64,000 nt of DNA from Bacteroidota bacterium (GTDB taxonomy: Bacteria; Bacteroidota; Ignavibacteria; UBA10030; UBA6906), in assembly GCA_019637975.1 (NCBI GenBank), contig JAHBUR010000007.1, forward strand, positions 85,997-149,996, in the 5' to 3' direction. The notes under the pieces were generated by a model. The model saw only the letters and a list, made by a program, of their open reading frames with translations. It had not been told where the DNA came from and did no database searches. Numbering within the stretch: the first letter of the stretch is position 1; the number at the start of each line of letters is the position of its first letter. The position numbers and the translations under genes were made by a program. Of this stretch, positions 16,363 through 36,329 are shown piece after piece.

Positions 16363-16869
16363 ATGACGAAGAGATGGAGAGTAAGCCCTGTGTCACTGCT
16401 ACTACTCGCAGCAGTTTTTCTTGTGGCCACAAAAGCGGAAAGTCAGACACACGGAATCAGCGCAGAAGAACTCGCTGCGCGCGCACACATCGTTGCGGTC
16501 GGCAGTGTACAGTCGATGCAGTCGGAATGGTCTTCCGATAGAACCAAAATTGTCACGAACGTGACAATCGCCGTCGACCAGTACTTGAAGGGAAGCCGGC
16601 AGGATCGGACTTTAACGATCACCGTTCCCGGCGGAGAAGTGGACGGTGTAGGAGAATTGTACAGCCATGTGGCCAGGTTCCGACAGGATGAAGAAGTAGT
16701 GGTGTTCGCCGAACGCGATGCGGGAGGAGTATTGCGTGTAGCCGGAGGTGAGCAGGGAAAACTGAGTCTGACAACCGAACGGTTTTCGGGCAAGCGTGTT
16801 GTTGGTGAAGGCGAATTACTTGAGGCATTTGCTACACGTGTCAGAGGTGCCGCTCAGAATGGTCAGTAG
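16363..16869 (+). CDS. secreted hypothetical protein
   Basis: Signal peptide MTKRWRVSPVSLLLLAAVFLVATKAESQ, GGAGA RBS, no recognisable motifs. First gene of the tRNA-adjacent island. Confidence 0.5.
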   Translation: MTKRWRVSPVSLLLLAAVFLVATKAESQTHGISAEELAARAHIVAVGSVQSMQSEWSSDRTKIVTNVTIAVDQYLKGSRQDRTLTITVPGGEVDGVGELYSHVARFRQDEEVVVFAERDAGGVLRVAGGEQGKLSLTTERFSGKRVVGEGELLEAFATRVRGAAQNGQ

Positions 16870-16933: not shown

Positions 16934-19900
16934 ATGATAATGAAGAAAAACAGCGGGATTTCAGTCCGGGCAATTCTGATAACGCTTGCGACAATCTTGT
17001 TCGGCAGCCAGCCAATGGCGCAGGCGCAACCGAATTCGACGGTCGTTCCCTATTTGGGGACGGGATACAAGTATATGCAAGTAAGCTGGGGCTTGCTTTC
17101 AGGATTTGAATCGCCGGGCTACGACGATAACGCGTGGGCAACGGGCGATGCCGGCTTTGGATCGATAGGAGGTTGCACGCTCAACACTACAGCGAATGTG
17201 AAGACTTCATGGTCGGTCAACACCGACATTCTTGTACGAAAGTGGTTCTCGCTGCCTGGCGGTGCACGCAACGTGATGATCCGTATTGCGATTGACAACG
17301 ATGTTCAGGTGTTCTTCAACGGGCAGGACGTTTCGGGTGGGTTGCGAACACGCGAGGGTTGTGCTGTTCGGGACAGTTATGTATTTGGCGTACCCGACGA
17401 GTTCCTTGTCACCGGAAGCAACCTTCTCGCAATTCGCGGCCGCGACCGCGGCTCGGAGTCGTATCTTGATGCTGAAGTGTTGGCGGATATTCCCGTTACT
17501 GTGATAGTCACCAATACGCTCGACAGCGGAGGCGGCTCATTGCGTGATGCTCTGGCAGTCACCAATGCGAGCAAGGCAATTGATACCATCAAGTTCAATA
17601 TCCCCGGTACGGGTGTACGGACGATAAGCCCTGCATCGCCATTACCGACGATTGATCGTCCGGTGGTGATTGATGGAACAACCCAGCCCGGATTTGCCGG
17701 TACGCCTCTAATTGCGTTGAATGGAGTAGACGCCCCTGATCATACCAACGGTTTTCATATCACAGGGGGCTCCTCCACAATCAAAGGTCTAATGATCAGC
17801 GGCTTTCACGCGCACGGAATAAAGATCTCCGTACTTTCTTACAATACAATTTTGGAAAATGCCATAACCGGGAACGGCAAAGCGGGTATTGTCGTCGTGT
17901 CCGGGCTCGGCAATCGCATTTCGCGGAACCGGATATACGAGAACGGCGAGTTGGGAATTGATTTGAGCGACAACGGAATTACGCCGAATCAGCCCCCTTC
18001 GCGCCCGCCGACACCGCGCCCCGAAACGTCATCTCTCCCGAATTTCGGGCAGAACTATCCTGTGTTGTATTACGCAGATGTCGAGTCGTCGTTTGTGCGC
18101 GGCTCTGTCAACAGTTGGCCGCACAATCTTCTGACAATTGAGGTTTTCCGGAACGATGTTATCGATCCGACGGGTTTCGGTGAGGGCAAAACCTTCATAG
18201 GAACAGCAACTTTCAGATCGGATGCAAACGGTAATGCCGTGTTTTCCATTCCCTCCCTTGTTCCGCTCTCTGCCGGTCAGTTTCTTTCGGCAACTGCAAC
18301 AGACTCCGCGGGGAATACATCGGAATTCTCCGGGAATATTATTGTCGGGGTTCGGACCAAGATTTACGGAGATCATTTTGTTGTCAATACAACATTCTCC
18401 GGCATTCCTTTGCGTTGGGCGAACGGCGAAGGCGTATATTCGTTGAGCACGGACATCCCACCCTCTTTCATACCTCCGATTGACAATGCATTTGGCACCT
18501 GGAGCGCCCTTCCACAGCTCAACTATTCAAAAGTTGGTTCTCCAAGTAACAACGTTTGGGGCGGCTTGCCCGACGGTGTGAATAATGTTGCGTGGATTAC
18601 TTCAAGTTGGATATACATTACCGGAGCCGACCCGGGCACAATTGCGGTAACACGAGTTCGCTACAACAGCGTCACCGGAGAGTTCACGGATGTGGATATT
18701 GCCTTCAACGCCGAGCATTTTCCCTTCGTGATCGTCCCTCCGAATCCTTCTCCGGCAGATACGGCGGGGAAGAAGGATGTACAGAACGTTGCGACACACG
18801 AAATCGGACACTATAGCGGATTGGGGGATATTTATGATCCCGGGTATCCGCAGTACGTTCCGTTCATGGGAGAGGGAAATGATTTTGTGACGATGTACGG
18901 CTTCATCAAGAACGGCGAAGTATCAAAGCGCGAGTTGCATCCGCCCGATACTGCCGGTATTGGCTACATCTTCCGGAGCATTCCTCAAAGTAGAGTTGAT
19001 GTGATACTCGTTTTCGACGGGGCGGGAACATTCGCCTCAACCGAGCAGGCTTTCGAGCCGGCAAAAAACAGCGCGTTGGAACTCGTTCAGAAGCTGAGAG
19101 TGGGAGATCGGATTGGCATTGTCCGTTTGCCCAATACAGTCGTTTCCGACCTCATTTCTATTCAGGACAATGCATCGCGACAGCTTGCGAGTACGAGAAT
19201 CGAAGCAATGGCCGCCGGAGGGACGAGTTTTCTGGGGCAAGGATTGCAAACAGCACAGTCTGTGTTGAATACATCTCCGTTGATGAATCAGGGAAGGGCG
19301 ATGATTCTGTTCAGTGCGGGAGATAACAACGGAACGCCCGATGCGCTCAGCGTTCTGCCATCTCTCAAAACCTCCCAAACCCGCTTGTTTACGCTCGGTT
19401 TCGCCGGAAATCCGGGCCAAGATCTGAGCAGCAGACTCGCTGACTCTACAGGCGGCTCATATCACCTTGCCTCCGATACGACACTCAGCCAAATTGTGAA
19501 CGAGATTTGGAACACGATTACCGGCACACAGTTGCTCGCCGATACGACGTTTCTTTCGAACGCGCCCGGACTCACGTGGCAAGGAGGGTTGACGTGGCAG
19601 GGTGGTTTGACATGGCAGGGGGCGGTTGATCCCGGCACGTCGCTTCTTCTTCCGGGCCTGACATGGCAGGGGAGCACGTTTCTGTTGAGTCTGTTGCCGC
19701 CCACTCCCGGCGACACAATTACACCATTCAACTACACAAACTTCCCCGGCGTGGAACACATCACCGGCCCGACGTTTGCTTTCTACCGCATCCGCAATGC
19801 GGCGCCCGGAATTTGGAGGTTGCACGTTAACGGGGCCAACACCACTCCCGAGCCACCCTCCCCCGAAGAACTCAGGCTTTCGCTTGTTGCAATAACAGAC

Positions 19901-21355
19901 GTGACCATGTCGCTGAAGTTCAACAAGCTGAACTATGCCATTGATGAAGTCGTGAGTATTGAGACCCGGCTTTCGCAAGGCGGGCAATCTCCGGGTGGCG
20001 AACATGTATTTGGCGGCGGCCCGATTACTGACGCGGAGGTTTTGGCCGATGTGATAGTGCCGGGAAGTCCCGGGTTCCAGACTGTTGCTTTAACACACAC
20101 CGGAGCGGGAATTTACGGGGGTTCATTCACCAATACGGCAGTCGGAGGGAGCTACAAATTTATAGTCCGTGCCCGCGGTCAGGTTGCCGCTGCCGATAGT
20201 TTCAAACGGCAAGTCGAGCAATCGGTATATGTTCTTGCCCCGTTTTCCACAAATGCGGTTTTGTTTGCCGGTGCCGGAATCGACCTCGGGGCGGATGTTG
20301 TTGTGAATTCGGGCGATGTCATTGTTAATAATGCCCGACCCGGAAGTCAGGTCGAGTTGTCACTCGGGGCCAAAGCAACAACTCCTGCCGGATTCAGCGT
20401 GCGTGCCAACAGAATATCGCTGAAGAGTCATGCGAAAGTATTCGGAGATGCGTACTATAATAGCCTCACAAATCAGGGAACAATCAGCGGTTCGCGGAAC
20501 ACGCCTCTGAGTCTCCCGGTTGTTCCGGCCCTTCCGCCGTTCGAAACGGCGACAGCCGGAACGCAGGACATCACGGTTGCCACCAAAAAGGCGACATCAA
20601 TTGCTCCGGGAACATACCGGGATATTGTGGTGCAACCGCAGGCAACGCTAACTTTCAATGGTGGAGGTGTCTACCAATTCAGATCGATTACAACGAAAAG
20701 CAAGTCAAGGCTGCTGTTTAACGGACAAAGCCGCGTTCGCGTCGTCAAGGACGTGAATGCCGATGCCGACACGTACATCGGGCCGGCACAAGGAAGCCCG
20801 ATTGACGCATCAGGAATTCTCTTCTTTGTCGGCGGTACGGGAACACAAGCAGTCGTACTCGGCCCGAAGGCCATCGTATTTGCCAACTTCTATGCTCCGA
20901 ACGGAAACATCACGTTCAAGGCACAGACGGAGGCTACGGGCGCCTTCCTCGCCAATACCATCAATGCCGATGCAAAAGCGATGATTACTTTGGGGAGCGC
21001 ATTCTCCGGAATCCTCAAGCCTGCCGCAGGCGGATGGACACTCGAGCCGGAGGCAATGAACGGGGAAGGAATCCCGACCACGTTTGCCTTGGAACAAAAC
21101 TACCCCAATCCTTTCAATCCTGCCACTACTATCCGGTTTGCGTTGCCAGAGCAGCGTACCGTGAGCATTGTGGTGTACGACATCCTCGGCAGAGCCGTAA
21201 GAACCCTGGTTCAAAATACGTACGACGCAGGGCGATATGATGTTGTATGGGACGGGAAGAACGACCAGGGACAGCAGGTCAGCAGCGGCGTGTTCTTCTG
21301 CCACATGAAAGCGGGAGAGTTTTTAGAACAGAAGAAGATGATGTTCTTGAAGTAA
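16934..21355 (+). CDS. 1473-aa mosaic T9SS-secreted protein: beta-sandwich, parallel beta-helix, metzincin-like HExxHxxGxxD peptidase motif, vWA-like segment, GLTWQG repeats, T9SS C-terminal domain
   Basis: Signal peptide. VIVTNTLDSGGGSLRDALAVTNAS beta-helix N-cap with NxIxxN-like rungs. HEIGHYSGLGD plus a downstream VTMYG Met-turn. DVILVFDGAGTF...GGTSFLGQGL vWA-like segment. C-terminal NYPNPFNPATTIRFALPEQRTVSIVVYDILGRAV... sorting domain. Confidence 0.8.
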   Translation: MIMKKNSGISVRAILITLATILFGSQPMAQAQPNSTVVPYLGTGYKYMQVSWGLLSGFESPGYDDNAWATGDAGFGSIGGCTLNTTANVKTSWSVNTDILVRKWFSLPGGARNVMIRIAIDNDVQVFFNGQDVSGGLRTREGCAVRDSYVFGVPDEFLVTGSNLLAIRGRDRGSESYLDAEVLADIPVTVIVTNTLDSGGGSLRDALAVTNASKAIDTIKFNIPGTGVRTISPASPLPTIDRPVVIDGTTQPGFAGTPLIALNGVDAPDHTNGFHITGGSSTIKGLMISGFHAHGIKISVLSYNTILENAITGNGKAGIVVVSGLGNRISRNRIYENGELGIDLSDNGITPNQPPSRPPTPRPETSSLPNFGQNYPVLYYADVESSFVRGSVNSWPHNLLTIEVFRNDVIDPTGFGEGKTFIGTATFRSDANGNAVFSIPSLVPLSAGQFLSATATDSAGNTSEFSGNIIVGVRTKIYGDHFVVNTTFSGIPLRWANGEGVYSLSTDIPPSFIPPIDNAFGTWSALPQLNYSKVGSPSNNVWGGLPDGVNNVAWITSSWIYITGADPGTIAVTRVRYNSVTGEFTDVDIAFNAEHFPFVIVPPNPSPADTAGKKDVQNVATHEIGHYSGLGDIYDPGYPQYVPFMGEGNDFVTMYGFIKNGEVSKRELHPPDTAGIGYIFRSIPQSRVDVILVFDGAGTFASTEQAFEPAKNSALELVQKLRVGDRIGIVRLPNTVVSDLISIQDNASRQLASTRIEAMAAGGTSFLGQGLQTAQSVLNTSPLMNQGRAMILFSAGDNNGTPDALSVLPSLKTSQTRLFTLGFAGNPGQDLSSRLADSTGGSYHLASDTTLSQIVNEIWNTITGTQLLADTTFLSNAPGLTWQGGLTWQGGLTWQGAVDPGTSLLLPGLTWQGSTFLLSLLPPTPGDTITPFNYTNFPGVEHITGPTFAFYRIRNAAPGIWRLHVNGANTTPEPPSPEELRLSLVAITDVTMSLKFNKLNYAIDEVVSIETRLSQGGQSPGGEHVFGGGPITDAEVLADVIVPGSPGFQTVALTHTGAGIYGGSFTNTAVGGSYKFIVRARGQVAAADSFKRQVEQSVYVLAPFSTNAVLFAGAGIDLGADVVVNSGDVIVNNARPGSQVELSLGAKATTPAGFSVRANRISLKSHAKVFGDAYYNSLTNQGTISGSRNTPLSLPVVPALPPFETATAGTQDITVATKKATSIAPGTYRDIVVQPQATLTFNGGGVYQFRSITTKSKSRLLFNGQSRVRVVKDVNADADTYIGPAQGSPIDASGILFFVGGTGTQAVVLGPKAIVFANFYAPNGNITFKAQTEATGAFLANTINADAKAMITLGSAFSGILKPAAGGWTLEPEAMNGEGIPTTFALEQNYPNPFNPATTIRFALPEQRTVSIVVYDILGRAVRTLVQNTYDAGRYDVVWDGKNDQGQQVSSGVFFCHMKAGEFLEQKKMMFLK
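19568..19621 (+). repeat. three tandem 18-bp repeats encoding GLTWQG (fourth copy at 19655-19672)
   Basis: ggactcacgtggcaagga / gggttgacgtggcagggt / ggtttgacatggcagggg read directly. The variation is mostly synonymous. Confidence 0.8.
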
Positions 21356-21497
21356 GGCCGGACTTGCATAATCTTCCGGTCGTCACTACCTTTACACCGG
21401 AAGCTGTTGTGATGAGGAGGTGTCATGAAGCGATTGTGACACCTCTTCTGTTTTTCAAGAAAGTAGCCCATCAGTGATTCGGAAACACAAGCACGCG

Positions 21498-24400
21498 ATG
21501 TTATTCATTACAGGTTGCAGAGTTGCGGCCCTTTTTCTTGCTGTCCTGCTCGTTTACGCGAATTCCTTTTCCCAAGCCAAACTCAGGTTCTCGCATCTGG
21601 ACGTCCGGCACGGGCTTTCCCAGAGTTCGGTGACATGCATCTTTCAGGATAGTCAAGGATTCATGTGGCTTGGAACGCAGGAAGGCCTCAACAGATTCGA
21701 CGGATACACCTTTGTCGTCTTCAAGCATAACCCGGCCGACGAAAGGAGCCTGAACGGCAACTTCATCGTTTCCATTTACGAAGATAAGGACGGTGTTCTG
21801 TGGTTTGAGACACTCACCAATGCCGAGGTTCTCAACCGGTTCGACAAACTCACAGAGACGTTTACGGAGGTACAAAAGGACAGCATTGACCTGAAGAATG
21901 CAAAATTCAGTTCAGTTTTTCCCTGGTATGAGGATCATGCAGGCGTTCGCTGGGAAAGGAAGCCCGGCGGAGGGCTGAGGAAGCTTGATACAAAAACCGG
22001 CATTCAAACGGAATACAAGAATGACCCCGCCAACCCCCGAAGTCTGAGTGACAACAGAGTATATTCCGTGTACGGAGATCGCTCGGGCACGATATGGATA
22101 GGAACCCGTGGTGCCCTCGAACGCTACGATCCGGCAACCGATTCCTTCATCCACTACAAAAAGGAAGTCGGCAATCCGAATTCGCTGAGCGACAATTGGG
22201 TGTGGCCCATTTTTGAGGATCAACTAGGCACGCTATGGGTCGGCACGGTGAACAGCGGCTTGAACAGGTTTGATCGGGAGTCGGGCGTATTCACGAGCTA
22301 CCAGCATGAGGATACCGACCCGAGAAGCTTGAGCAGCAATTGGATTTTTTCCATTTATCAGGATCGGTCGGGGCTTCTATGGGTTGGCACAAGCGGAGGC
22401 GGCGTGAACACGTTTCATCCGGGTTTGACTTCGTTCACCCATTACGCGAGAGATTCCCGGAATCCGAACAGCCTGAACGACAACCAGGTGAGAACAATCC
22501 ACGTGGATCGTTCAGGCATTGCATGGATCGGAACGCCCGGCGGCCTCAATCGTCTGGATAAAGCGAAGAAAACCTTCACCCACTATAAATCCGATCCCGC
22601 CAACCCGAAAAGTCTGGGAGATGTTCCGAATGTTATTTATGAAGATCGTTCAGGTGTGTTGTGGGTTGGAACGATGAGTAACGGCCTCGACCGGTTCGAC
22701 CGGCAGACGGGAACGTTCATACATTATCGCCGCGATCCCGCCAATCCGAAAAGCCTCAGCGATAACAGAATCTATGCATTGCTCGAAGACAGGAAGGGCA
22801 CGTTTTGGGTCGGGACAAACGGCGGCGGGTTGAATAAATTCGAAAGGGCATCCGGAACATTCAAAACGTACAACCATGATCCGAATATTCCGGCCAGTTT
22901 GAGTGCAAGAACGGTATGGGCAATTCACGAAGACCATGAGGGTGTGTTGTGGGTCGGAACAGCCGCCGGCGGCCTCAACCGGTTTGATCCTGAAACGGAA
23001 ACATTCACCGCTTTCAAGAATGACAAGTCAAATCCCTCAAGTCTGAGCGACGATGTTGTCGTTTGTATCTATGAAGATCGGCTGCATAACCTCTGGGTCG
23101 GTACTACCGGCGGGTTGAACCGGCTCGACCGCGCAACGGGGAACTTCACAATCTATCGTGAGACGGAGGGCCTGCCGAACAACAGCATCTTCGGAATTCT
23201 GGAAGACGGGAAGGGATATCTCTGGCTCAGCACCAACAAGGGATTGTCGAGATTCGATCCGGTGAATGAAACGTTCCGCAACTACGATGCGAGCGACGGC
23301 TTACAAGGGGAAGATTTCAATCAGAATGCCTATGCAAAGAACTATTCCACCGGTGAAATGTACTTCGGAGGCAACGGCGGCTTCAACGTTTTCCATCCTG
23401 ACCGCGTGCAGGACAATCCGTTCGTTCCGCCCGTCGTCTTCAGTACATTTCGCAGATACAATACGGATGACAGTGAAGGAAAGGCTATCGAAGAACGGGG
23501 CATTCCTGTAAGAGACAAGATTGAGTTAACGTACAAAGACAATATCGCAACATTCGAATTTGCCGCGCTGAGCTACTACAACGTGTTCAAGAACCGTTAC
23601 ACGTACAAGCTGGAAGGCTTCAGCGACAACTGGATTCAGCTCGGCACCGAGCACAGGGCAACGTTCACCAACCTCGATCCCGGCACTTACACTCTGCGTG
23701 TGAAAGGCTCGAACAACGACGGCGTGTGGAACGAGCAAGGCACGGCAATGATTCTCATGGTCACTCCGCCCTGGTGGAAAACAGCCTGGGCTTATGCGGG
23801 ATATGTGTTGATGTTCTTTGGAGTGCTGTATCAGCTTCGCAAGTTTGAAATCAACCGGCGGGAGCAGAAGGCACTTGTGCGGGAATCCGAACTGCGGGCG
23901 AAGGCTGCGGAAGCGGAAAAGCGGGCGCTGGAAGCCGAAAACGAACGCAAGACGAAGGAATTGGAAGAGGCGCGGCAACTTCAACTCTCCATGCTTCCTC
24001 GCGAAGTACCGAAACTCCCTCATCTGGAGATTGCCGTGTTCATGAAAACTGCGACCGAGGTAGGCGGCGACTATTACGATTTCCATCTCGCGGAAGACGG
24101 CACACTCAGCATCGCGTGCGGCGACGCAACCGGACACGGCATGCAGGCAGGAACTGTGGTTACATTGACGAAAGGACTCTTTACATCGGATGCTTCCCGG
24201 CTCGATATCAAATCATTCCTGAACCATTGCAGCAAAGCAATCAAGGATATCAAGTTGGGCCGGCTGCTGATGGCCATGACGCTCGTAAAAATCAACAATC
24301 ACAAGATTTCCTTCGCAACGGCCGGGATGCCGCCCGTTTTCATTTGCAGAAACGGCAGCGGAACGGTTGAAGAGGTATTGCTCAAAGGCATGCCGTTAGG

Positions 24401-24668
24401 TGCAATGAGAAATTTTCCCTACATTATCCACGAGGAAGAATTGCAGGCCGGCGATTCACTGCTAATGCTGACCGACGGCCTGCCCGAGCAGAAGAACGCC
24501 GCTGGAGAAATGTTCGACTATGCCCGGGTTCACGAGGTGTTGAAGGAGGCGGCAGGCGAAACACCGCAAGAGTTGATCAACCGGCTCGCATTGTCGGGCG
24601 ACGAGTGGATGAAGGGGGCTGTGCAGGAAGACGACATCACGATGATTGCCGTAAAGATGAAGGATTGA
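21498..24668 (+). CDS. hybrid sensor: periplasmic beta-propeller (two-component-regulator propeller repeats) + Y_Y_Y domain + TM + coiled coil + PP2C/SpoIIE-type Ser phosphatase
   Basis: At least 12 repeats of the D/NxxxxSLSDNxVxxIxEDxxGxLWVGT type. TM segment WWKTAWAYAGYVLMFFGVLY. Coiled coil (ELRAKAAEAEKRALEAENERKTKELEEARQ). PP2C motifs GGDYYDF and LLMLTDGLPE. The ORF-track GTG at 21474 is also possible. Confidence 0.8.
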   Translation: MLFITGCRVAALFLAVLLVYANSFSQAKLRFSHLDVRHGLSQSSVTCIFQDSQGFMWLGTQEGLNRFDGYTFVVFKHNPADERSLNGNFIVSIYEDKDGVLWFETLTNAEVLNRFDKLTETFTEVQKDSIDLKNAKFSSVFPWYEDHAGVRWERKPGGGLRKLDTKTGIQTEYKNDPANPRSLSDNRVYSVYGDRSGTIWIGTRGALERYDPATDSFIHYKKEVGNPNSLSDNWVWPIFEDQLGTLWVGTVNSGLNRFDRESGVFTSYQHEDTDPRSLSSNWIFSIYQDRSGLLWVGTSGGGVNTFHPGLTSFTHYARDSRNPNSLNDNQVRTIHVDRSGIAWIGTPGGLNRLDKAKKTFTHYKSDPANPKSLGDVPNVIYEDRSGVLWVGTMSNGLDRFDRQTGTFIHYRRDPANPKSLSDNRIYALLEDRKGTFWVGTNGGGLNKFERASGTFKTYNHDPNIPASLSARTVWAIHEDHEGVLWVGTAAGGLNRFDPETETFTAFKNDKSNPSSLSDDVVVCIYEDRLHNLWVGTTGGLNRLDRATGNFTIYRETEGLPNNSIFGILEDGKGYLWLSTNKGLSRFDPVNETFRNYDASDGLQGEDFNQNAYAKNYSTGEMYFGGNGGFNVFHPDRVQDNPFVPPVVFSTFRRYNTDDSEGKAIEERGIPVRDKIELTYKDNIATFEFAALSYYNVFKNRYTYKLEGFSDNWIQLGTEHRATFTNLDPGTYTLRVKGSNNDGVWNEQGTAMILMVTPPWWKTAWAYAGYVLMFFGVLYQLRKFEINRREQKALVRESELRAKAAEAEKRALEAENERKTKELEEARQLQLSMLPREVPKLPHLEIAVFMKTATEVGGDYYDFHLAEDGTLSIACGDATGHGMQAGTVVTLTKGLFTSDASRLDIKSFLNHCSKAIKDIKLGRLLMAMTLVKINNHKISFATAGMPPVFICRNGSGTVEEVLLKGMPLGAMRNFPYIIHEEELQAGDSLLMLTDGLPEQKNAAGEMFDYARVHEVLKEAAGETPQELINRLALSGDEWMKGAVQEDDITMIAVKMKD

Positions 24669-24673
24669 CCCCC

Positions 24674-25090
24674 ATGCATGATACCGTAGCTTTGAAAATC
24701 GAACTTCCTAAGATTCCCGATATCGAGTTGGTTGCGATTGAAGGGCTGGAACGTCTCGGCCGCCATCTCGGAATCACCGACGAGAAAGTTGGGGAAGCCC
24801 GCGTACTCGTTACAGAAGCGATCATCAATGCGCTGGAACATGCAGGCGAAGAGAACCCGGTTGTCCAGGTCGAATTCACGATGTCCAAACAAGAGTTGAC
24901 GATTTTTGTCAGGGATTACGGGAAGGGATTCCAGCCTTCGGCAATTCAATCGCCGGACATCGGGAAGAAATTCGGCTCGAAAGACAAGCGCGGGTGGGGA
25001 TTGCATCTGATGAAATCAATGTCGGATGATTTCCGCATCGAGTCGAAAGAAACAGGAACAAAGATTACGCTCATCAAGAAACTGACGTAG
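24674..25090 (+). CDS. RsbW/SpoIIAB-like anti-sigma factor Ser kinase (GHKL ATPase)
   Basis: N-box EAIINALEHAG, G1 DYGKGF, G2 GWGLHLMKSM. The ATG sits 6 nt after the sensor-phosphatase stop. Confidence 0.75.
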   Translation: MHDTVALKIELPKIPDIELVAIEGLERLGRHLGITDEKVGEARVLVTEAIINALEHAGEENPVVQVEFTMSKQELTIFVRDYGKGFQPSAIQSPDIGKKFGSKDKRGWGLHLMKSMSDDFRIESKETGTKITLIKKLT

Positions 25091-25098
25091 GATCGACA

Positions 25099-25449
25099 AT
25101 GGAACAAGAGTTTACACTGACATCAGAAGTGCAGGACGGGTGTCTGGTGATTGCAACATCGGGATATGTCAACAACAAAGGCGGCGAAGCGATTGCGCAG
25201 GAGTTCAGCAAGCATTTTGACGCCGGCATCAAGCGCGTGATCATCAACCTGGCGCAATCAAAAGTTGTCAACTCCATCGGCATGTCTTTTCTGATCGAGA
25301 TCATCGAACGGCTGGAAGAAACAGGCGGCAAGCTCGTGTTCACCAACTTGGATCCCGGTGTCGAGAAGATGCTTTCTATTATGGGATTGTTCAACTTTGC
25401 AGGGAAAGAAAAGACCGTGCAGGATGCCCTCAAGTCATTCTCAATATAG
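25099..25449 (+). CDS. STAS-domain anti-sigma-factor antagonist (RsbV/SpoIIAA-like)
   Basis: 116 aa. VVNSIGMSFLIEII matches the phospho-acceptor region, with NSIG in place of the usual DSSG. Confidence 0.75.
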   Translation: MEQEFTLTSEVQDGCLVIATSGYVNNKGGEAIAQEFSKHFDAGIKRVIINLAQSKVVNSIGMSFLIEIIERLEETGGKLVFTNLDPGVEKMLSIMGLFNFAGKEKTVQDALKSFSI

Positions 25450-25466
25450 CAGTTGCGGGCACCCAC

Positions 25467-27065
25467 GTGGCATCTCAGCATCTCGTTGACCGGCTTTCTG
25501 TTCAAATTGATTCATTGCAGGATGGATTTGAAGCCCTCACTCGTGCTACGAACCTGAAAGAACTGTCCCGACAGTTCTTCCATCTTCTTCGCGGAAATTT
25601 CGTCACGTCGGAAATCTCCATTTATCGAAAACAGAAATCCGCCGACTTATGGGAATTTCTGTACGGCAAAGGGCACGAAAGCTCCGAATATCTCGGCGAA
25701 GCGTCAACGACGTTTGCGTTGAAGGGATTCGGCGGAAAAGATCCGAAACTGACTGCCGTTCAGCCGCTGGTGGATAAATCATCGGCGGGCGTTGTACTGG
25801 GACGCAAGCTCGACGGCAGCACGTATTCATCCCTCGACAAAATCTCACTTCAGATTTTTCTCCAACTCTTCGCAAATGCGTATCAGGCACACCTTCAGCA
25901 ACGCAAAGAGAAGGAACTCATCTTTTCTCTCAATCACCGTCTGCTGCAACTGAACAGCCTCATCGATACCGGTATCGAATTGACGAGGCCGAGAAAGGGA
26001 GTCTCGCCCCCTGTTCTTGCTCTTGAGCGGGCCGCGGTTCTGACCAACGCATCGTGGGGTACATACAAGAAAACCGTTCAGGGGCAGTCAATGGAAGAAC
26101 TGGTTTTCCCGGCCGGGACGAAGCCGCATCGTATCAAGGACAAGCGCCATCGCATTCATGCGGGATTCAAGTTTCGTGATGCAACATACGCGTTCAATCT
26201 GTACGAAAAGGAAAGCCGGGCAGGCACAATCCCGTTTGACGAAACCGACACGATGCTTCTTGCTGCTGTGTGCCGTCAGGTTCATGCAGTGATTGAAAAC
26301 CAGTTTCTGCATAATGAAGAGTTGGAGAAGCAAAAAATCGAGCAGGATATTGCTGTTGCCGCGGCAATACAAAAGCGGATAATACCGGAAAGACTTCCCG
26401 CAATCCCGGGCTACGATCTGTTCGGTATCAATATTCCGACCAAGGCGGTCGGGGGGGATTATTACGATTGTATTCCTTTAGCGAACGGAACGTATGCGTT
26501 CATCATGGCGGATGTCGCGGGGAAGGGCGTTCCTGCCGCGTTGCTGGTCAGCAGTTTTCATGCTTATCTGACGGCGTATCTTGAGGTGGAATTTTCCTTG
26601 CTGACGCTGGCGCAGAAACTCAACAGCGCAATGTACCGTTCGTCTACTCCCGAACGGTATATTACCGGTATCGTCGGTGTTCTCAATCCGTCGACGGGAG
26701 AGTTGGAGACGATCAACGCCGGGCACAATCCGATGTACGTTCACCGGAACAACAGTACGGTGGAGGAATATGCGAATGGCGGCATAGCATTCGGCATGCT
26801 CGACATCGACTTTCCGTATCAGAGTGATCGGATCATCATCCAACCGGGAGAACGCGTGTTGCTGTACACGGACGGCGTTCCCGAGGCGATGAACAGCGAC
26901 GAAAAGCTCTACGACACGAATGATTCGTTCAAGAAATTCATGATCAACAACCGGCCGGAAGGCGCGGAGCATTTCATACATTCGCTCATGAGCGATGTTT
27001 CCTCCTTCACAGGGTCGGCTCCGCAAAGCGACGACATTACTGCCCTGTATCTTCTTCGACGTTAA
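25467..27065 (+). CDS. PP2C/SpoIIE-type Ser phosphatase (RsbU-like) with N-terminal sensory region
   Basis: AVGGDYYDCIPLANGTYAFIMADVAGKGVPAAL and LLYTDGVPEAMN PP2C motifs. GTG start. Confidence 0.75.
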   Translation: MASQHLVDRLSVQIDSLQDGFEALTRATNLKELSRQFFHLLRGNFVTSEISIYRKQKSADLWEFLYGKGHESSEYLGEASTTFALKGFGGKDPKLTAVQPLVDKSSAGVVLGRKLDGSTYSSLDKISLQIFLQLFANAYQAHLQQRKEKELIFSLNHRLLQLNSLIDTGIELTRPRKGVSPPVLALERAAVLTNASWGTYKKTVQGQSMEELVFPAGTKPHRIKDKRHRIHAGFKFRDATYAFNLYEKESRAGTIPFDETDTMLLAAVCRQVHAVIENQFLHNEELEKQKIEQDIAVAAAIQKRIIPERLPAIPGYDLFGINIPTKAVGGDYYDCIPLANGTYAFIMADVAGKGVPAALLVSSFHAYLTAYLEVEFSLLTLAQKLNSAMYRSSTPERYITGIVGVLNPSTGELETINAGHNPMYVHRNNSTVEEYANGGIAFGMLDIDFPYQSDRIIIQPGERVLLYTDGVPEAMNSDEKLYDTNDSFKKFMINNRPEGAEHFIHSLMSDVSSFTGSAPQSDDITALYLLRR

Positions 27066-27250
27066 CTTCGCCACACTCCATTCGTTGTTCCGAATCAGCA
27101 TCAGGTCGGGGATAGCAAAAGAATCTCAAATTCCTTATCATGTTCAGTACCTTTTTCAGCGTGCAGATCGACACTCAAAAAGGGCATTATTCGTCGGTGG
27201 AGCCCGCTTTTCGGGGTTTCGCCATTTCCAACGGGGGAAACACACAAGCG

Positions 27251-28675
27251 ATGTCGTCGAGAGCCTTTCTCACGCAATTTCATGAGTTCAGCCGCCGGAA
27301 ACATCTCATTGAAGAGCGTGATCGGATTATTGCCGCAGTCAGCGGCGGGGCCGACTCGATGGTATTGCTGGATTTGTTGGCAAAGGAGCAGGAGTCGTTC
27401 GGGCTGACGATTATTGTTGCTCATTTCAACTTCCGGCTGCGGGGAGCAGAATCCGACGGTGATGAAGCCCTTGTCGCGCGCAGCGCGCGCCACTACGGAT
27501 TTGAATTGTATGTGGAGCATGCCGATACTGAAGCATTTGCCCAGCAGCATCGTGTCGGGATTCAGGAAGCCGCCCGCATGTTGCGGTATGAGTTCTTTGA
27601 CAAACTGTTGCTTTCGAGCGGATTTGACAAAATTGCCACGGCACATAACGCCGACGACAATGTTGAAACGATCATGATGAATCTCTTCCGCGGCTCCGGC
27701 GTAAGCGGACTTGCGGGGATTCCCGTATATCGCGAAGACCGGCGGATTATCCGGCCTTTGCTGTTTGCTGAACGGTCAGAGATTGAGGCCTATGCGGCAG
27801 CCGGGCATCTGACGTTCCGCAATGATTCTTCCAACGAGAAGGATTATTACACCCGGAATTTTATCAGGAATCGTATACTCCCTCTGATCAAAGAGGAAGT
27901 GAATCGGGGTGTTGTTTCGACGATGAATCGATTGGCGGAAGTGTTTCGTGAGTTGGATGTGTTCCTGAAAGAGACAGCGCACGCCCGGTATCAGCCCGTT
28001 GTCGTGTTCGACAGTAATGAGGAGCTGCATCTTTCCATTTCAAAGCTGAGGACAATTCCGAAGCTCATTCAACATTACATTATTATGATGGCTTCGGAAG
28101 CGTTCTCCGGAACAAAACTCGAATACGATCAAGTAAGCCGGGTTTTGGAGTTAACAGAAGGGTTGACCGGGTCGCGTGTGGAAATCGACAAGAATTCGGT
28201 TGTCTATCGGGATCGGGATCATCTGGTCTTTCGACGCGTTGAAGAGAAGGTGGAGTTCCGGTTTGCAGTTCTTCCGGCTCATCGCTACCGGTTCGAGCGG
28301 TTCGAGTTTTCGTCGGAGATTCTTGAAACGCGCAGCGCGCCGACGAACGGGAGGAACACGGAGTATATTGATGCGGACAAGGTCGAAGGCCAGGAACTTG
28401 TCATCCGCTCGTGGCGGGAGGGAGATTGGTTCGTTCCGCTTGGCATGACGAGCCGCAAGAAGCTCAGCGATTTTTTCGTTGATGCCAAGATCCCCGTGTT
28501 CGAGAAACCGTTTATTCCGATTCTCGAAACAAAACGGGGCGACATTGTGTGGGTGTGCGGATACAGAATTGACGAACGATTCAAAGTGACGTTGGAAACG
28601 CGGAGGGTGATGAAACTTCATTTTTCTTTACTACCAAAGCAGAATGCCCTTCAACAAAAAGAGTCTGAAAATTAA
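27251..28675 (+). CDS. tilS: tRNA(Ile)-lysidine synthetase
   Basis: PP-loop SGGADSMVLLDLL. It holds the conserved position before hpt-ftsH. The start choice (MSSRAF) is uncertain; the ORF extends up to 27140. Confidence 0.8.
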   Translation: MSSRAFLTQFHEFSRRKHLIEERDRIIAAVSGGADSMVLLDLLAKEQESFGLTIIVAHFNFRLRGAESDGDEALVARSARHYGFELYVEHADTEAFAQQHRVGIQEAARMLRYEFFDKLLLSSGFDKIATAHNADDNVETIMMNLFRGSGVSGLAGIPVYREDRRIIRPLLFAERSEIEAYAAAGHLTFRNDSSNEKDYYTRNFIRNRILPLIKEEVNRGVVSTMNRLAEVFRELDVFLKETAHARYQPVVVFDSNEELHLSISKLRTIPKLIQHYIIMMASEAFSGTKLEYDQVSRVLELTEGLTGSRVEIDKNSVVYRDRDHLVFRRVEEKVEFRFAVLPAHRYRFERFEFSSEILETRSAPTNGRNTEYIDADKVEGQELVIRSWREGDWFVPLGMTSRKKLSDFFVDAKIPVFEKPFIPILETKRGDIVWVCGYRIDERFKVTLETRRVMKLHFSLLPKQNALQQKESEN

Positions 28676-29198
28676 CGGGGATCGCTTCGTTGTCATGCTG
28701 AGCGAGCGTCGGATCAAAGCAAAAGTGAAAGAACTTGCCCGGACGATCAGCAAAGACTACAAAGGCACTGTGCCGGTGTTTATCGGCATACTGAACGGCT
28801 CATTCATCTTCTTTTCAGACTTGATTCGTGAAGTGAGTATCGACTGCGAAATCGACTTTCTCAAACTCTCCAGCTACGGAGATGCGAAGATTTCGTCGGG
28901 GAACGTCCGGTTGCTGAAGGATTTGAATTGCCAGGTGGAGGGACGTGACATCATCATTGTGGAAGATATCATTGATTCCGGGCTCTCGATGGAGTATATC
29001 CGCGATCTGATCCGCCATCAGAACCCAAAGTCGTTTCGCGTTGTTACTCTACTGTACAAGAAAGATGCGGTAAAGACGCAGATGAAGATTGACTACATCG
29101 GATTTTCGATTCCTAAGGATTTTGTGATCGGGTACGGCCTTGATTACGCGCAGAAACTGCGGCACCTCAAGGCAATCTACCGGTTGAAGGAAAGCTGA
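28644..29198 (+). CDS. hpt: hypoxanthine-guanine phosphoribosyltransferase
   Basis: PRPP-binding motif IIIVEDIIDSGLSM. tilS-hpt-ftsH synteny. Confidence 0.85.
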   Translation: MPFNKKSLKINGDRFVVMLSERRIKAKVKELARTISKDYKGTVPVFIGILNGSFIFFSDLIREVSIDCEIDFLKLSSYGDAKISSGNVRLLKDLNCQVEGRDIIIVEDIIDSGLSMEYIRDLIRHQNPKSFRVVTLLYKKDAVKTQMKIDYIGFSIPKDFVIGYGLDYAQKLRHLKAIYRLKES

Positions 29199-29219
29199 TT
29201 TTACGTTAACGAGGAAGAG

Positions 29220-31256
29220 ATGGACGAAAAAAAGAAAACAGACGGTGGTATGCGCTCCGGGGATTCGGACAAGAAACGCGGGTTTCAGCGACCAGCAAAA
29301 AAACGTCCCGGGCAGCAATTCCGACCGGACGATGATTTCAACTGGAACAGGGTGCTGAAGGTTGTTCTCAGCTGGTCGGCAATTATTGTTCTCGTGTTTG
29401 TGATGATGCAGATGTTCAAAGGACCGGAAGGTGCCGAGCAGGAGATCACGTACACCGAGTATCAGGCATATCTGCAAGCAAATGATATCGCCGAGGCCAC
29501 AATCAAAAAATCGGATTTGGCCAACTACGATTTTCATGGCAAGTTGCGTGAACGCAAGAGAGTGATGCGGGGCGGCAAGGAAGTTGTGTTTGATAAGTTT
29601 GTTCTCACCCTGCCGATTCTCGACAGCGCTGTCATAAAGGATTGGACTGACCGCGGGCTCAAATTCACCGTTGTTCGTGAAGACAATACGTGGATCAGCG
29701 CGCTGATCGGGATCCTGCCGTGGATATTGCTGCTGGTTGTCTGGCTTATCATCATGCGACGGATGCAAGGCGGCGGGCCGAAGGGCATCTTCTCCTTTGG
29801 AAAGAGCCGCGCAAAAATGCTGAACGAAGGCGCCCCAAAGGTGACGTTCCTCGACGTCGCCGGAGCAGACGAAGCGAAGGTCGAGTTGCAGGAGATTATC
29901 GAGTTTCTCAAAGAGCCGACGAAATTCCAGAAACTCGGCGGCAAGATTCCCCGCGGCGTGCTTCTCCTCGGCCCTCCCGGTACGGGAAAAACTCTTCTCG
30001 CCCGCGCCGTTGCCGGAGAAGCGGGTGTGCCGTTCTTCTCGATTTCTGGTGCCGATTTTGTCGAGATGTTCGTCGGTGTTGGAGCGAGCCGTGTGCGCGA
30101 TCTGTTTGAGCAGGGAAAGAAAAGCGCTCCCTGCATCATCTTCATCGATGAAATCGACGCCGTCGGCCGTCACCGCGGCGCGGGTCTCGGCGGCGGACAT
30201 GATGAACGTGAACAGACGTTGAATCAGTTGCTTGTTGAGATGGATGGCTTTGAGCAGAATAGCGGCGTCATCATCATCGCGGCAACCAATCGTCCCGATG
30301 TGCTCGATCCTGCTTTGATGCGTCCGGGCCGTTTCGACCGGCAAGTTGTTGTCGATCGTCCCGATGTGAAGGGGAGAGAAGGAATTCTCCGCGTACATAC
30401 GAAGAATATTCCTCTTGCTGAAGATGTGAAGCTCGAGACGCTTGCCAAGGGCTCGCCGGGACTTGCGGGCGCCGAGCTTGCCAACCTCGTCAACGAGGCT
30501 GCGCTTCTTGCCGCACGGCAAAATGACAAGGCCGTTTCGATGCGTCACTTTGAAGAGGCAAAGGACAAAGTGATGATGGGGATGGAACGGAAGAGTATGA
30601 TCATTTCCGAAAAGGAAAAGAAGATCACTTCCTATCACGAAATCGGGCATGTGTTGGTGGCGCGGATGATTCCCGAAGCCGACCCTGTGCATAAAGTGAC
30701 GATCATCCCGCGCGGCAGGGCGCTCGGTTTGACAACCTACCTGCCGATTGATGAAAAGCATACATACTCGAAGGCGTATCTCGAAGCGATGATCTGCTAC
30801 GCATTGGGCGGACGGGCAGCTGAGAAGCTGATTTTTGGTGAGCTGACAACCGGCGCCGGCAACGACATTGAGCGTTCCACGGAAATCGCCAGAAAAATGG
30901 TGTGCGAGTGGGGAATGAGCGAGACGCTCGGCCCGTTGACGTACGGCCAGAAAGATGAAGAGATCTTCCTCGGGCGGCAAATCACGCGCCAGAGAAACTA
31001 CAGTGAAGACACGGCGATTGCCATTGACGCGGAAGTGAAGAAAATTGTCGAGGGAGGTATGAACCGGGCGGAGAAGATTCTCCACGAAAATATGGATTTG
31101 CTGCACCGGCTTTCACAAGCGTTGCTCGAACGCGAAATTCTCGACGCAAACGAAATCGACACGATCATCCGCGGTGAAGAGCTTCCGCCGCTGGAAAAAC
31201 GGGGGAACGGACACATCGAACCTGCCCCTGTTGGCTCCTCCGATATCAAGAAATGA
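29220..31256 (+). CDS. ftsH: ATP-dependent zinc metalloprotease FtsH
   Basis: Walker A GPPGTGKT, second region of homology, HEIGHVLV zinc site. TM segments flank a periplasmic domain. Confidence 0.95.
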
Positions 31257-36325: not shown

Positions 36326-36329
36326 TCTG

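What the first reader, a model, noticed from the sequence alone, without database searches (positions are those of the whole stretch)
24674..27065. Complete partner-switching module (RsbW-like kinase, STAS antagonist, second PP2C phosphatase) with no adjacent sigma factor
The kinase gene (GHKL N/G1/G2 boxes), the STAS gene (candidate phospho-Ser in NSIG, deviating from the usual DSSG) and a second RsbU-like phosphatase follow the sensor-phosphatase. Intergenic gaps are 6, 8 and 17 nt, so they form one operon. No sigma factor is encoded in the operon. The only sigma in the window is the orphan ECF gene 14 kb away, which itself lacks an anti-sigma. The target of the anti-sigma-like kinase is therefore unknown. 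It may be a distant sigma or a non-sigma output. Two phosphatases feed one switch, which suggests two-signal integration.
Basis: partly seen in the sequence, partly recalled or inferred. Interest (0 to 1): 0.7.

Follow-up and report, generated by a model that had tools for sequence, protein, structure and literature searches.

The report
Sigma-less partner-switching phospho-switch operon
A four-gene operon encodes a protein switch (one kinase, its small STAS substrate, two sensor phosphatases) of a well-known bacterial type, but it belongs to an unstudied subfamily with no linked sigma factor, and in its closest relatives the kinase is fused to signalling enzymes.

Summary
Window 21474-27065 (+) is one operon. 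It encodes a transmembrane sensor phosphatase (BT4663-type periplasmic beta-propeller sensor fused to PP2C), a 138-aa GHKL Ser kinase, a 116-aa STAS protein with invariant Ser59, and a second PP2C phosphatase whose N-terminus is predicted to fold as a tandem GAF. No sigma factor gene lies in the operon. An ECF-seeded sigma profile found sigma genes within 10 kb in only 4 of 81 related loci.

The kinase-STAS-GAF-phosphatase trio is present in all 81 loci (Ignavibacteriota, Melioribacter, Calditrichota, KSB1), flanked by one to three sensor phosphatases. In the window's clade the sensor phosphatase always follows a secreted 168-aa protein and a giant T9SS-secreted metalloprotease.

The pair is not an RsbW/RsbV orthologue. 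It scores below the NCBIfam equivalog cut-offs, the docking Arg (RsbW R23) is Ile, the STAS motif is N-S-x-G, and the kinase gene comes first. Its nearest relatives are kinase domains fused to nucleotide cyclases, STAND ATPases or sigma-54 activator AAA+ domains. In the four fusion loci inspected, an N-S-x-G STAS gene follows the kinase.

This works as a multi-input partner switch. Its output is unlinked and, as a lead only, more likely non-sigma. It is a new variant of a known kind, of moderate interest.

The parts
16363..16869 (+). Secreted 168-aa protein with no Pfam or NCBIfam match. It is a conserved partner of the following T9SS cargo gene. It is associated with the switch rather than part of its core.
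   Evidence: N-terminal hydrophobic signal-like segment at aa 4-25. Orthologue upstream of the cargo gene in at least 21 genome loci and in L082-L088, L091 and L092.
16934..21355 (+). Giant T9SS cargo protein of 1473 aa. It contains beta-helix repeats, a Bap-like segment, an HEIGHxxGLGD zinc-protease motif at aa 622, a CLCA-like VWA domain, and an FlgD_ig/Por_Secre_tail sorting domain. In the window's clade it is always followed by the sensor phosphatase.
   Evidence: Pfam, NCBIfam, PDB. HExxH conserved in 24/24 orthologues. Synteny.
21414..21457 (+). 15-bp GC-rich hairpin plus T run directly after the cargo gene. It looks like an intrinsic terminator or attenuator and leaves only about 20-40 nt before the sensor phosphatase start.
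   Evidence: Scan and sequence. Equivalent hairpins sit at the same place in most clade-A loci.
21474..24668 (+). Transmembrane sensor phosphatase. The layout is a signal anchor, a periplasmic Reg_prop beta-propeller/Y_Y_Y sensor (about nt 21591-23741), a second TM segment, a coiled coil, and a PP2C domain (nt 24096-24659). The NCBI gene call implies a start at ATG 21498.
   Evidence: Pfam. PDB 4a2l (BT4663 sensor) E 1.5e-112. Start position. Hydrophobic segments; the second TM is inferred. Motifs GGDYYD, DATGHG, TDG and DDIT.
24674..25090 (+). 138-aa GHKL Ser kinase of the HATPase_c_2 family, the switch kinase.
   Evidence: Pfam. Closest solved relatives are RsbW 6m36 (1.4e-10) and SpoIIAB (5e-8). 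N/G1/G2 residues invariant. 60-78% identity across phyla.
25099..25449 (+). 116-aa single-domain STAS protein, the kinase substrate and antagonist. The Ser59 codon is at 25273-25275 within the VVNSIG motif.
   Evidence: Pfam. Aligned to SpoIIAA 1th8_B at 5.6e-8, with Ser59 on the phospho-Ser. N58, S59, G61 and S63 invariant in 80/80.
25467..27065 (+). Cytoplasmic phosphatase of 532 aa with a GTG start. It has a tandem GAF-like sensor region (nt 25467-26366), a long linker helix, and a PP2C domain (nt 26484-27053).
   Evidence: Pfam. AF2 models with pLDDT 84.6 and 86.3. Foldseek matches the N-terminus to PDE5A/PDE6/PDE2A tandem GAF and phytochrome GAF-PHY, E down to 5e-7. The C-terminus matches SiaA, RssB, Rv1364c and SpoIIE. 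Full-length family of about 532 aa.

Best explanation
The operon is a partner-switching phospho-switch with several inputs and an output encoded elsewhere.

Proposed mechanism:
- The 138-aa kinase phosphorylates Ser59 of the STAS protein.
- The membrane phosphatase removes the phosphate when its periplasmic BT4663-type beta-propeller sensor binds a ligand. By homology this is probably an oligosaccharide-like molecule linked to the neighbouring T9SS-secreted protease.
- The cytoplasmic tandem-GAF phosphatase removes the phosphate in response to an intracellular ligand.
- Both phosphatases probably signal through a helical linker into the PP2C domain.
- Unphosphorylated STAS then binds the kinase and changes what the kinase does to a third partner.

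The third partner is not encoded next to the module in any lineage. In the closest relatives the same kinase domain is fused to nucleotide cyclases, STAND ATPases or sigma-54-activator AAA+ domains, and is followed by the same N-S-x-G STAS type. I therefore consider a non-sigma effector, acting in trans, somewhat more likely than an unlinked sigma factor.

Shown here: domain content, catalytic and phospho-acceptor residues, operon tightness, synteny, and the fusion relatives.

Inferred: phosphorylation itself, the ligands, the direction of signalling, and the target.
For: Core switch:
- Domains and motifs are present.
- Most RsbW-RsbV contact pairs are kept: E41/K90, R43, T47, and E48 opposite Ser59. 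This comes from hhalign plus my own ungapped register for the STAS side, which was not tool-verified. Residue roles are from PMC7340262.
- The kinase-STAS gap is 3-29 nt in 80/80 loci, and the STAS-phosphatase median gap is 20 nt.
- The trio is present in 81/81 loci, with 1-3 sensor phosphatases beside it.

Inputs:
- 4a2l at E 1.5e-112 for the periplasmic sensor.
- Tandem GAF fold for the second phosphatase.
- Precedents are RsbU+RsbP and the tandem-GAF RsbZ, with the coiled-coil linker mechanism (PMC12143880).

Link to the T9SS cargo:
- The cargo gene followed by the sensor phosphatase is seen in essentially every clade-A locus with enough upstream sequence.
- The pair stays together in L026, where it is inverted relative to the trio.
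- It holds in 7 of 8 informative loci found independently by seeding on the protease domain.

No cis sigma.

Non-sigma lead:
- With the same kinase profile, RsbW scores 44 bits and SpoIIAB 36 bits. All 150 listed cluster representatives score about 80 bits or more. 54 of them are fusions to AAA_16/ATPase_2, Guanylate_cyc, Sigma54_activat, GGDEF or HD_5, and none has a sigma domain.
- In L169, L171, L172 and L173 the fused kinase is followed by a 116-120-aa N-S-x-G STAS. L169 and L172 also carry a Reg_prop-SpoIIE phosphatase.
- The L169 STAS is 41% identical to the window STAS.
Against: - Nothing here shows phosphorylation, binding or any phenotype.
- The whole genome could not be searched, so an unlinked sigma target of group 1, 2 or 3 cannot be excluded. 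Precedents exist: Chlamydia RsbW with sigma-66 (abstract) and Synechocystis Slr1861/Ssr1600 with SigC.
- The fusion argument is an inference from relatives that share only about 25-35% identity in the kinase domain.
- The closest solved relatives are still genuine anti-sigma factors.
- The GAF assignment rests on predicted structure only. No Pfam GAF hit was found, and TM-scores are modest at 0.3-0.5.
- The terminator-like hairpin between the cargo gene and the sensor phosphatase could mean separate transcription.
Confidence: 0.6

Rival explanations
1. This is a classical anti-sigma switch with an unlinked target. The free kinase sequesters a sigma factor encoded elsewhere, such as the housekeeping sigma, a group 2/3 sigma or FliA. 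Unphosphorylated STAS releases it.
For: The closest solved structures are RsbW and SpoIIAB and SpoIIAA. Unlinked sigma targets are documented for Synechocystis Slr1861/Ssr1600-SigC and Chlamydia RsbW-sigma66 (abstract). The unusually high conservation of the kinase (60-78% across phyla) would fit a very conserved partner such as a primary sigma. Ignavibacterium album has 16 sigma genes (PMC3362086).
Against: An ECF-seeded profile found sigma genes in only 4 of 81 loci, and none of them is conserved next to the module. The Arg equivalent to RsbW R23 / SpoIIAB R20 is Ile or Leu. The acidic STAS residue that clashes with sigma (SpoIIAA/RsbV E21) is Tyr (PMC7340262). NCBIfam scores are far below the RsbW and SpoIIAB cut-offs. 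Nearest relatives are fused to non-sigma effectors. In Melioribacter-type loci the operon has a sigma70-like promoter rather than an alternative-sigma autoregulatory one (weak, pattern chosen post hoc).
Confidence: 0.3
2. The target is the orphan ECF sigma in the window (7497-8189).
For: It is the only sigma in the window and has no adjacent anti-sigma. In L008, L021 and L022 a different HATPase_c_2 + STAS pair sits directly upstream of an ECF sigma, so kinase/STAS-ECF linkage exists in this lineage.
Against: That ECF-linked pair is a separate paralogue. Its STAS has an SSAG motif and is 19% identical to the window STAS, and the unit carries its own TM anti-sigma-like protein and a PrsW protease. 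No ECF is conserved within 10 kb of the trio in 81 loci. From general knowledge, known GHKL anti-sigmas bind sigmas that have a sigma-3 domain, which ECF sigmas lack.
Confidence: 0.04
3. This is an RsbT-RsbU-type relay. The kinase's target is the second phosphatase itself: once released from STAS, the kinase binds and activates it, and it then acts on another STAS elsewhere.
For: The kinase, STAS and this phosphatase form a strict 1:1:1 trio with a family-specific N-terminal region in 81/81 loci, while the number of sensor phosphatases varies. Kinase-activated PPM phosphatases are known (PMC12143880).
Against: The phosphatase has no RsbU_N domain; its N-terminus folds as a tandem GAF. The STAS is closer to SpoIIAA (5.6e-8) than to RsbS (0.08). 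The kinase profile matches RsbW and SpoIIAB, and no RsbT chain appears up to E = 10. The window has no second STAS.
Confidence: 0.08

Closest known systems
Bacillus subtilis sigma-B module (RsbU + RsbP phosphatases, RsbV STAS, RsbW kinase) and SpoIIE/SpoIIAA/SpoIIAB
   Same: A GHKL Ser kinase, a single-domain STAS with a phospho-Ser at the same position, SpoIIE-family PP2C phosphatases, and two differently sensing phosphatases converging on one STAS. Most kinase-STAS contact residues are kept.
   Different: There is no sigma gene in the operon. The kinase gene precedes the STAS gene. RsbW R23 is Ile and the STAS E21/D23 positions are Tyr/Asn. The motif is NSIG instead of DS[ST]G. NCBIfam equivalog scores are 53-56 bits against cut-offs of 135-145. 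The inputs are a periplasmic propeller sensor and a tandem GAF, not RsbU_N or PAS-hydrolase.
Chlamydia RsbU-RsbV1/V2-RsbW and Synechocystis Slr1861/Ssr1600-SigC
   Same: Both are partner switches with no sigma gene beside them. From memory (not verified here), Chlamydia RsbU is also a transmembrane phosphatase with a periplasmic sensor domain.
   Different: In those systems the targets were identified as sigma factors (sigma-66, SigC). Here the target is unknown. The sensor domain, the STAS motif and the gene order also differ.
Non-canonical STAS systems with non-sigma or unknown outputs (V. fischeri SypE/SypA, Bordetella BtrUVW, Rhodobacter RbaVW, Nostoc HmpUVW)
   Same: The kinase, STAS and phosphatase logic is the same, the output is unknown or not a sigma, and several are linked to surface structures, secretion or polysaccharide (PMC8256260).
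   Different: No sequence-level relationship was tested here. None is reported with a BT4663-type sensor phosphatase or a T9SS cargo neighbour. No paper in the searched library links partner switching to T9SS.
Pseudomonas aeruginosa SiaABCD (SiaA PP2C, with a partner switch controlling a diguanylate cyclase)
   Same: The SiaA PP2C domain (6k4e) is the best structural match of the second phosphatase's catalytic domain. From general knowledge, SiaABCD is a phospho-switch that controls a second-messenger enzyme rather than a sigma. This is the logic suggested by the cyclase-fused relatives.
   Different: No DGC or cyclase lies in or near this operon. From memory, SiaB and SiaC belong to other families. 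NCBIfam SiaA scores are far below cut-off at 32-34 bits against 700.
Clostridioides difficile RsbZ (tandem GAF-PPM phosphatase)
   Same: The architecture matches the second phosphatase: two N-terminal GAF domains, a helical linker and a PPM domain (PMC12143880).
   Different: RsbZ feeds RsbV-RsbW-sigma B. The GAF-like domains here are not recognised by Pfam.
Bacteroides thetaiotaomicron hybrid two-component system BT4663 (PDB 4a2l/4a2m)
   Same: The periplasmic Reg_prop beta-propeller + Y_Y_Y sensor followed by a TM segment is strongly homologous, at E 1.5e-112.
   Different: The cytoplasmic output is a PP2C phosphatase feeding a STAS switch. BT4663 instead has histidine kinase, receiver and AraC domains.

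Membership tests
Partner-switching module (kinase / STAS / PP2C) | GHKL (HATPase_c_2) Ser kinase with intact N, G1 and G2 ATP-binding boxes | tested here: met
   Pfam E 1.5e-22. E48, N52, D81, G83, G85, R106 and G107-G109 invariant. Matches RsbW and SpoIIAB.
Partner-switching module (kinase / STAS / PP2C) | Single-domain STAS with a phosphorylatable Ser/Thr at the SpoIIAA S58 / RsbV S56 position | tested here: met
   Ser59 aligns to the phospho-Ser of SpoIIAA and is invariant in 80/80 orthologues.
Partner-switching module (kinase / STAS / PP2C) | SpoIIE-family PP2C phosphatase(s) with metal-binding Asp motifs, linked to the pair | tested here: met
   Two SpoIIE domains. D331, D349, D469 and D522/D523 invariant in the second phosphatase family. 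Motifs present in both families. Gene gaps.
Partner-switching module (kinase / STAS / PP2C) | Reversible phosphorylation of STAS and mutually exclusive binding of the kinase to STAS or a target | not testable with these tools
   This needs kinase and phosphatase assays and binding studies.
Sigma-regulating Rsb/SpoIIA operon | Cognate sigma factor gene in or next to the operon | tested here: not met
   None in the window operon. An ECF-seeded profile found sigma genes in only 4 of 81 related loci, and none is consistently placed.
RsbW / SpoIIAB anti-sigma factor (orthologue) | Score above the NCBIfam equivalog cut-off | tested here: not met
   spIIAB 56.1 bits against 135. RsbW 53.4 against 145 and 43.9 against 155.
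RsbW / SpoIIAB anti-sigma factor (orthologue) | Conserved Arg (RsbW R23 / SpoIIAB R20) that contacts the antagonist, paired with an acidic STAS residue. From memory, Garsin 1998 reports that SpoIIAB R20 also contacts sigma F. | tested here: not met
   hhalign places I22 opposite R23. The STAS has Y23/N25 opposite E21/D23. Residue roles from PMC7340262.
RsbW / SpoIIAB anti-sigma factor (orthologue) | Binds and inhibits a sigma factor | not testable with these tools
RsbS-RsbT-RsbU relay | Phosphatase with an RsbU_N kinase-recruitment domain, and an RsbS-type STAS | tested here: not met
   No RsbU_N domain was found, and the N-terminus folds as a tandem GAF. The STAS matches SpoIIAA at 5.6e-8 against RsbS at 0.08.
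BT4663-type hybrid two-component sensor | Periplasmic Reg_prop propellers + Y_Y_Y domain | tested here: met
   Pfam Reg_prop E 1.4e-61 and Y_Y_Y E 1.7e-16. 4a2l at E 1.5e-112.
BT4663-type hybrid two-component sensor | Cytoplasmic histidine kinase + receiver + AraC output | tested here: not met
   The cytoplasmic part is a coiled coil plus a SpoIIE PP2C domain.
Tandem-GAF PPM phosphatase (RsbZ-like architecture) | Two GAF folds, a helical linker and a PPM domain | tested here: inconclusive
   AF2 plus Foldseek support a tandem GAF, with E 5e-7 and probability 1.0 but TM 0.3-0.5. No Pfam GAF hit in 19 members.

The most novel reading that the evidence does not exclude
The kinase/STAS pair may be the free-standing form of a portable 'N-S-x-G' switch cassette. 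In relatives the same cassette is fused to cNMP cyclases, STAND NTPases and sigma-54 activator AAA+ domains. In Ignavibacteriota and Calditrichota it would act as a hub. It would couple envelope sensing by BT4663-type sensor phosphatases, dedicated to a T9SS-secreted metalloprotease, and a cytoplasmic GAF input to a non-sigma effector acting in trans. That would make it a sigma-independent partner switch conserved across several phyla.
Probability: 0.3. Interest if true: 0.6.

Novelty: new variant of a known kind. Interest (0 to 1): 0.4.

Why it matters
Orphan partner switches are common in genomes, and for most of them the output is unknown.

This locus defines a sharply conserved, uncharacterised subfamily:
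- The kinase gene comes first.
- The STAS motif is N-S-x-G.
- The Arg that docks the STAS partner in RsbW is lost.

The subfamily spans Ignavibacteriota, Calditrichota and KSB1. A member occurs in a MAG assigned to Melioribacter roseus, a species with a cultured type strain, and Ignavibacterium album is another cultured candidate, though its carrier status was not checked here.

Two comparative observations turn 'target unknown' into testable hypotheses:
- The kinase domain is fused to cyclases, STAND ATPases or sigma-54 activators in its nearest relatives.
- A glycan-sensor-type phosphatase is strictly coupled to a T9SS-secreted protease.

If confirmed, this would extend partner switching in the FCB group beyond sigma control and connect it to cell-surface and secretion physiology. 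If the target turns out to be an ordinary sigma factor, the locus is simply one more Rsb-like module.

Tried and rejected
- **tilS-hpt-ftsH linkage.** These genes lie downstream, as they do after spoIIE in B. subtilis (gene order from memory). The linkage is present only in L001, L003 and L004 of 81 loci, so I treat it as coincidence.
- **ECF sigma 7497-8189 as target.** There is no conserved linkage.
- **RsbT/RsbU model.** No RsbU_N domain was found.
- **Pfam on the N-terminal 300 aa of the second phosphatase.** 19 members gave nothing meaningful. The fold had to be inferred from AF2 and Foldseek.
- **STAS against RsbV.** BLASTP gave no usable alignment. hhalign covered only aa 47-100 at low probability. 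I therefore relied on the HMMER alignment to SpoIIAA.
- **Generic promoter and terminator scan.** Counts equalled the shuffled expectation. Only the hairpin after the cargo gene stood out.
- **Contexts of short outgroup kinases** (P0255, P0257, P0261, P0266). The contigs are about 1 kb and uninformative.
- **Fused partner domains in the window.** tblastn found no cyclase, STAND or bEBP homologue.
- **Literature.** No paper in the library covers partner switching in Ignavibacteria, Reg_prop-PP2C phosphatases, or a T9SS link.
- **Clade-B promoter motif.** The TGGAyA-N16-TAnnwT motif (10/27 loci against 0.5 in shuffles) was defined after looking at the data. The 10 loci are related, so it is only a weak indication.
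Full report
**1. Observation**

Pfam gives:
- 21474-24668: Reg_prop x8, Y_Y_Y and SpoIIE (PP2C).
- 24674-25090: HATPase_c_2.
- 25099-25449: STAS.
- 25467-27065: a C-terminal SpoIIE domain.

The gaps are 5, 8 and 17 nt. tilS, hpt and ftsH follow downstream. A 168-aa secreted protein and a 1473-aa T9SS cargo protein lie upstream.

The contig is JAHCIC010000007.1 of GCA_026129445.1, an unclassified Bacteroidota MAG.

Pfam scans of nearly all plausible ORFs of at least 150 aa found one sigma gene, the ECF at 7497-8189. The window has no further kinase, STAS or PP2C paralogue.

**2. Are the parts functional?**

*Kinase.* The kinase profile matches B. subtilis RsbW (6m36, 1.4e-10) and SpoIIAB (about 5e-8). 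Its ATP-binding residues are invariant.

*STAS.* The STAS protein matches SpoIIAA (5.6e-8). Ser59 sits on the phospho-Ser position. N58-S59-x-G61-x-S63 is invariant in 80/80 orthologues.

*Phosphatases.* Both phosphatases keep the GGD, DxxG[HK]G, TDG and DD motifs.

**3. The two inputs**

*Sensor phosphatase.* The periplasmic part is strongly homologous to the sensor domain of the Bacteroides hybrid two-component system BT4663 (4a2l, E 1.5e-112). It is followed by a hydrophobic segment, a coiled coil and the PP2C domain.

*Second phosphatase.*
- It has no TM segment.
- AF2 models have pLDDT 84.6 and 86.3. They show two alpha/beta modules joined by long helices, then a 45-residue helix leading into the PP2C domain.
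- Foldseek matches the N-terminal 300 aa to the tandem GAF of PDE5A, PDE6 and PDE2A and to phytochrome GAF-PHY, with E down to 5e-7.
- Pfam does not recognise the region.
- The tandem-GAF-PPM architecture is that of C. difficile RsbZ. The helical-linker mechanism is described in PMC12143880.

Two phosphatases on one STAS is the canonical sigma-B design (RsbU and RsbP).

**4. Comparative genomics**

*Distribution of the kinase family.*
- It is 60-78% identical over 1521 clusters.
- A scan of one genome per species returned 80 loci. They come from Ignavibacteriota, Melioribacter, Calditrichota and KSB1 MAGs.

*ORF tabulation of the loci.*
- The kinase-STAS-GAF-phosphatase trio is present in 81/81 loci.
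- The kinase-STAS gap is 3-29 nt.
- One to three Reg_prop-PP2C phosphatases lie upstream in the window's clade. They lie downstream in Melioribacter-type loci.
- tilS-hpt-ftsH follows the trio in only three loci.

*Sigma genes.* An iterated sigma profile found sigma genes in 4 of 81 loci. The profile was ECF-seeded, so its sensitivity to group 1 and group 3 sigmas is limited. Three of the four belong to a separate unit downstream of the trio. That unit consists of a second HATPase_c_2, an SSAG-type STAS, an ECF sigma, a TM protein and PrsW.

**5. Link to a T9SS cargo**

- In the window's clade the order 168-aa gene, cargo gene, sensor phosphatase is constant.
- In L026 the cargo-sensor pair stays together although it is inverted relative to the trio.
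- As a reciprocal test I ran a metagenome scan seeded on the cargo's protease domain.
  - The sensor phosphatase follows the cargo in 7 of 8 informative orthologous loci.
  - The full trio follows in four of those loci.
  - L091 and L093 lack the trio within 4.4 kb.
- The cargo-sensor pair is therefore the tighter unit, and the trio acts as a hub.

The cargo protein carries several recognisable elements:
- an HEIGHxxGLGD motif conserved in 24/24 orthologues;
- a CLCA-like VWA domain;
- beta-helix repeats;
- a Por_Secre_tail sorting domain.

A GC-rich hairpin plus T run follows the cargo gene in the window (21414-21448) and in most related loci. It leaves about 20-40 nt before the sensor gene. 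The switch genes may therefore be expressed by attenuated read-through. This is an inference.

**6. Not an RsbW/RsbV orthologue**

- NCBIfam scores are far below the equivalog cut-offs.
- The RsbV-RsbW contacts are taken from PMC7340262. hhalign at probability 96.8 keeps E41, R43, T47 and E48. These lie opposite RsbW D42, K44, S48 and E49.
- RsbW R23 corresponds to I22 in this kinase.
- In the STAS, the acidic residues E21 and D23 correspond to Y23 and N25.
- The kinase gene precedes the STAS gene in all loci.

**7. Nearest relatives**

HMMER of the kinase profile against 1.84 billion cluster representatives gave 11 hits at E <= 1e-30 and 423 at E <= 1e-10.

All 150 listed hits score about 80 bits or more. 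With the same profile RsbW scores 44 bits. 54 of the 150 are long fusions:
- STAND-type AAA_16/ATPase_2 + kinase: at least 15.
- GAF/PAS + Guanylate_cyc + kinase: 10.
- Sigma54_activat + kinase: 3.
- GGDEF, HD_5, SpoIIE and REC: single cases.
- None has a sigma domain.

Contexts of the fused kinases:
- L169: Reg_prop-GAF-SpoIIE, then cyclase-kinase, then STAS, then VWA, then a cNMP-binding protein.
- L171: ATPase-kinase, then STAS, then GAF-HD_5.
- L172: bEBP-kinase, then STAS, with an adjacent Reg_prop-SpoIIE.
- L173: cyclase-kinase, then STAS.

All four of these STAS proteins carry N-S-x-G. The L169 STAS is 41% identical to the window's. L162 has a free kinase-STAS pair with no phosphatase or sigma nearby.

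This is a Rosetta-stone-type lead, not proof, that the subfamily drives non-sigma effectors.

**8. Literature**

- Orphan or non-sigma partner switches are well known: SypE/A, BtrUVW, RbaVW and HmpUVW (PMC8256260).
- Unlinked sigma targets are also known.
- I found nothing on this lineage or on a T9SS link.

**9. Verdict**

The observation and the cautious interpretation are right. The system works as a multi-input partner switch.

| Question | Confidence |
|---|---|
| It is a working multi-input partner switch (core claim) | about 0.85 |
| Output is a non-sigma effector | about 0.5 |
| Output is an unlinked sigma factor | about 0.3 |
| Full statement including the non-sigma preference | 0.6 |

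It is a new variant of a known kind, of moderate interest.

Noticed in passing
window 16363-21457: A secreted 168-aa protein with no family match, plus a 1473-aa T9SS cargo. The cargo has an HEIGHxxGLGD metalloprotease motif, a CLCA-like VWA domain, beta-helix repeats and a Por_Secre_tail. The two genes form a conserved pair that is almost always followed by the sensor phosphatase. A conserved GC hairpin plus T run sits between the cargo gene and the sensor gene. More distant protease homologues (L113, L125, L135, L149) also have a 168-aa-like neighbour.
   Followed up: partly
L008 7.4-14 kb, L021 12.7-18 kb, L022 12.6-18 kb: Directly downstream of the trio in three genomes lies a second, different unit. 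It contains an HATPase_c_2 kinase, an SSAG-type STAS, an ECF sigma, a TM anti-sigma-like protein, a large beta-propeller protein and a PrsW protease. This is a partner-switch pair apparently attached to a sigma-W-like RIP system.
   Followed up: partly
L169, L171, L172, L173 (metagenome/MAG contigs): In these loci the kinase domain is fused to another signalling domain and is followed by a 116-120-aa N-S-x-G STAS. The fusion partners are GAF-PAS-nucleotide cyclase, a STAND ATPase, or a sigma-54 activator AAA+ domain. Neighbours include a cNMP-binding protein, a GAF-HD-GYP protein and Reg_prop-SpoIIE phosphatases.
   Followed up: partly
L039-L080 (Melioribacter-type loci), about 85 nt upstream of the kinase ATG: TGGAyA-N16-TAnnwT lies at a fixed position (-83 to -87) in 10 of 27 loci, against 0.5 expected from shuffles. 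It looks like a sigma70-type promoter. The pattern was defined post hoc on related genomes.
   Followed up: partly
window 7497-8189: ECF sigma gene (SigH/SigW-like by NCBIfam, below cut-offs) with no adjacent anti-sigma. An M1 peptidase lies upstream. A NUDIX gene on the minus strand abuts its stop codon.
   Followed up: partly
window 27140-31256: tilS-hpt-ftsH directly follows a SpoIIE-family phosphatase. From memory this is reminiscent of B. subtilis spoIIE...tilS-hprT-ftsH. The linkage is seen in only 3 of 81 related loci, so it is probably coincidence.
   Followed up: yes
window 32484-34858: A DNA methylase (N6_N4_Mtase) gene overlaps a BsoBI-family restriction endonuclease gene, forming a type II restriction-modification pair. 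The region has lower GC (0.47).
   Followed up: no
window 36300-39431: Two squalene/phytoene synthase paralogues are followed by a flavin amine oxidase. This is an HpnC/HpnD/HpnE-like three-gene squalene route (assignment from memory).
   Followed up: no
L005/L009 (CAVPCZ01) and L011/L027 (PMJR01): Two full copies of the cargo, sensor phosphatase, kinase, STAS and phosphatase cluster occur in one MAG. This could be a true duplication or strain mixing in the bin. L005 has many frameshifted ORFs.
   Followed up: no
window 46507-63928: An ordinary conserved cluster: nusG, rplA, rplJ, rplL, rpoB, rpoC, rpsG, fusA, tuf, rplC and rplD.
   Followed up: no
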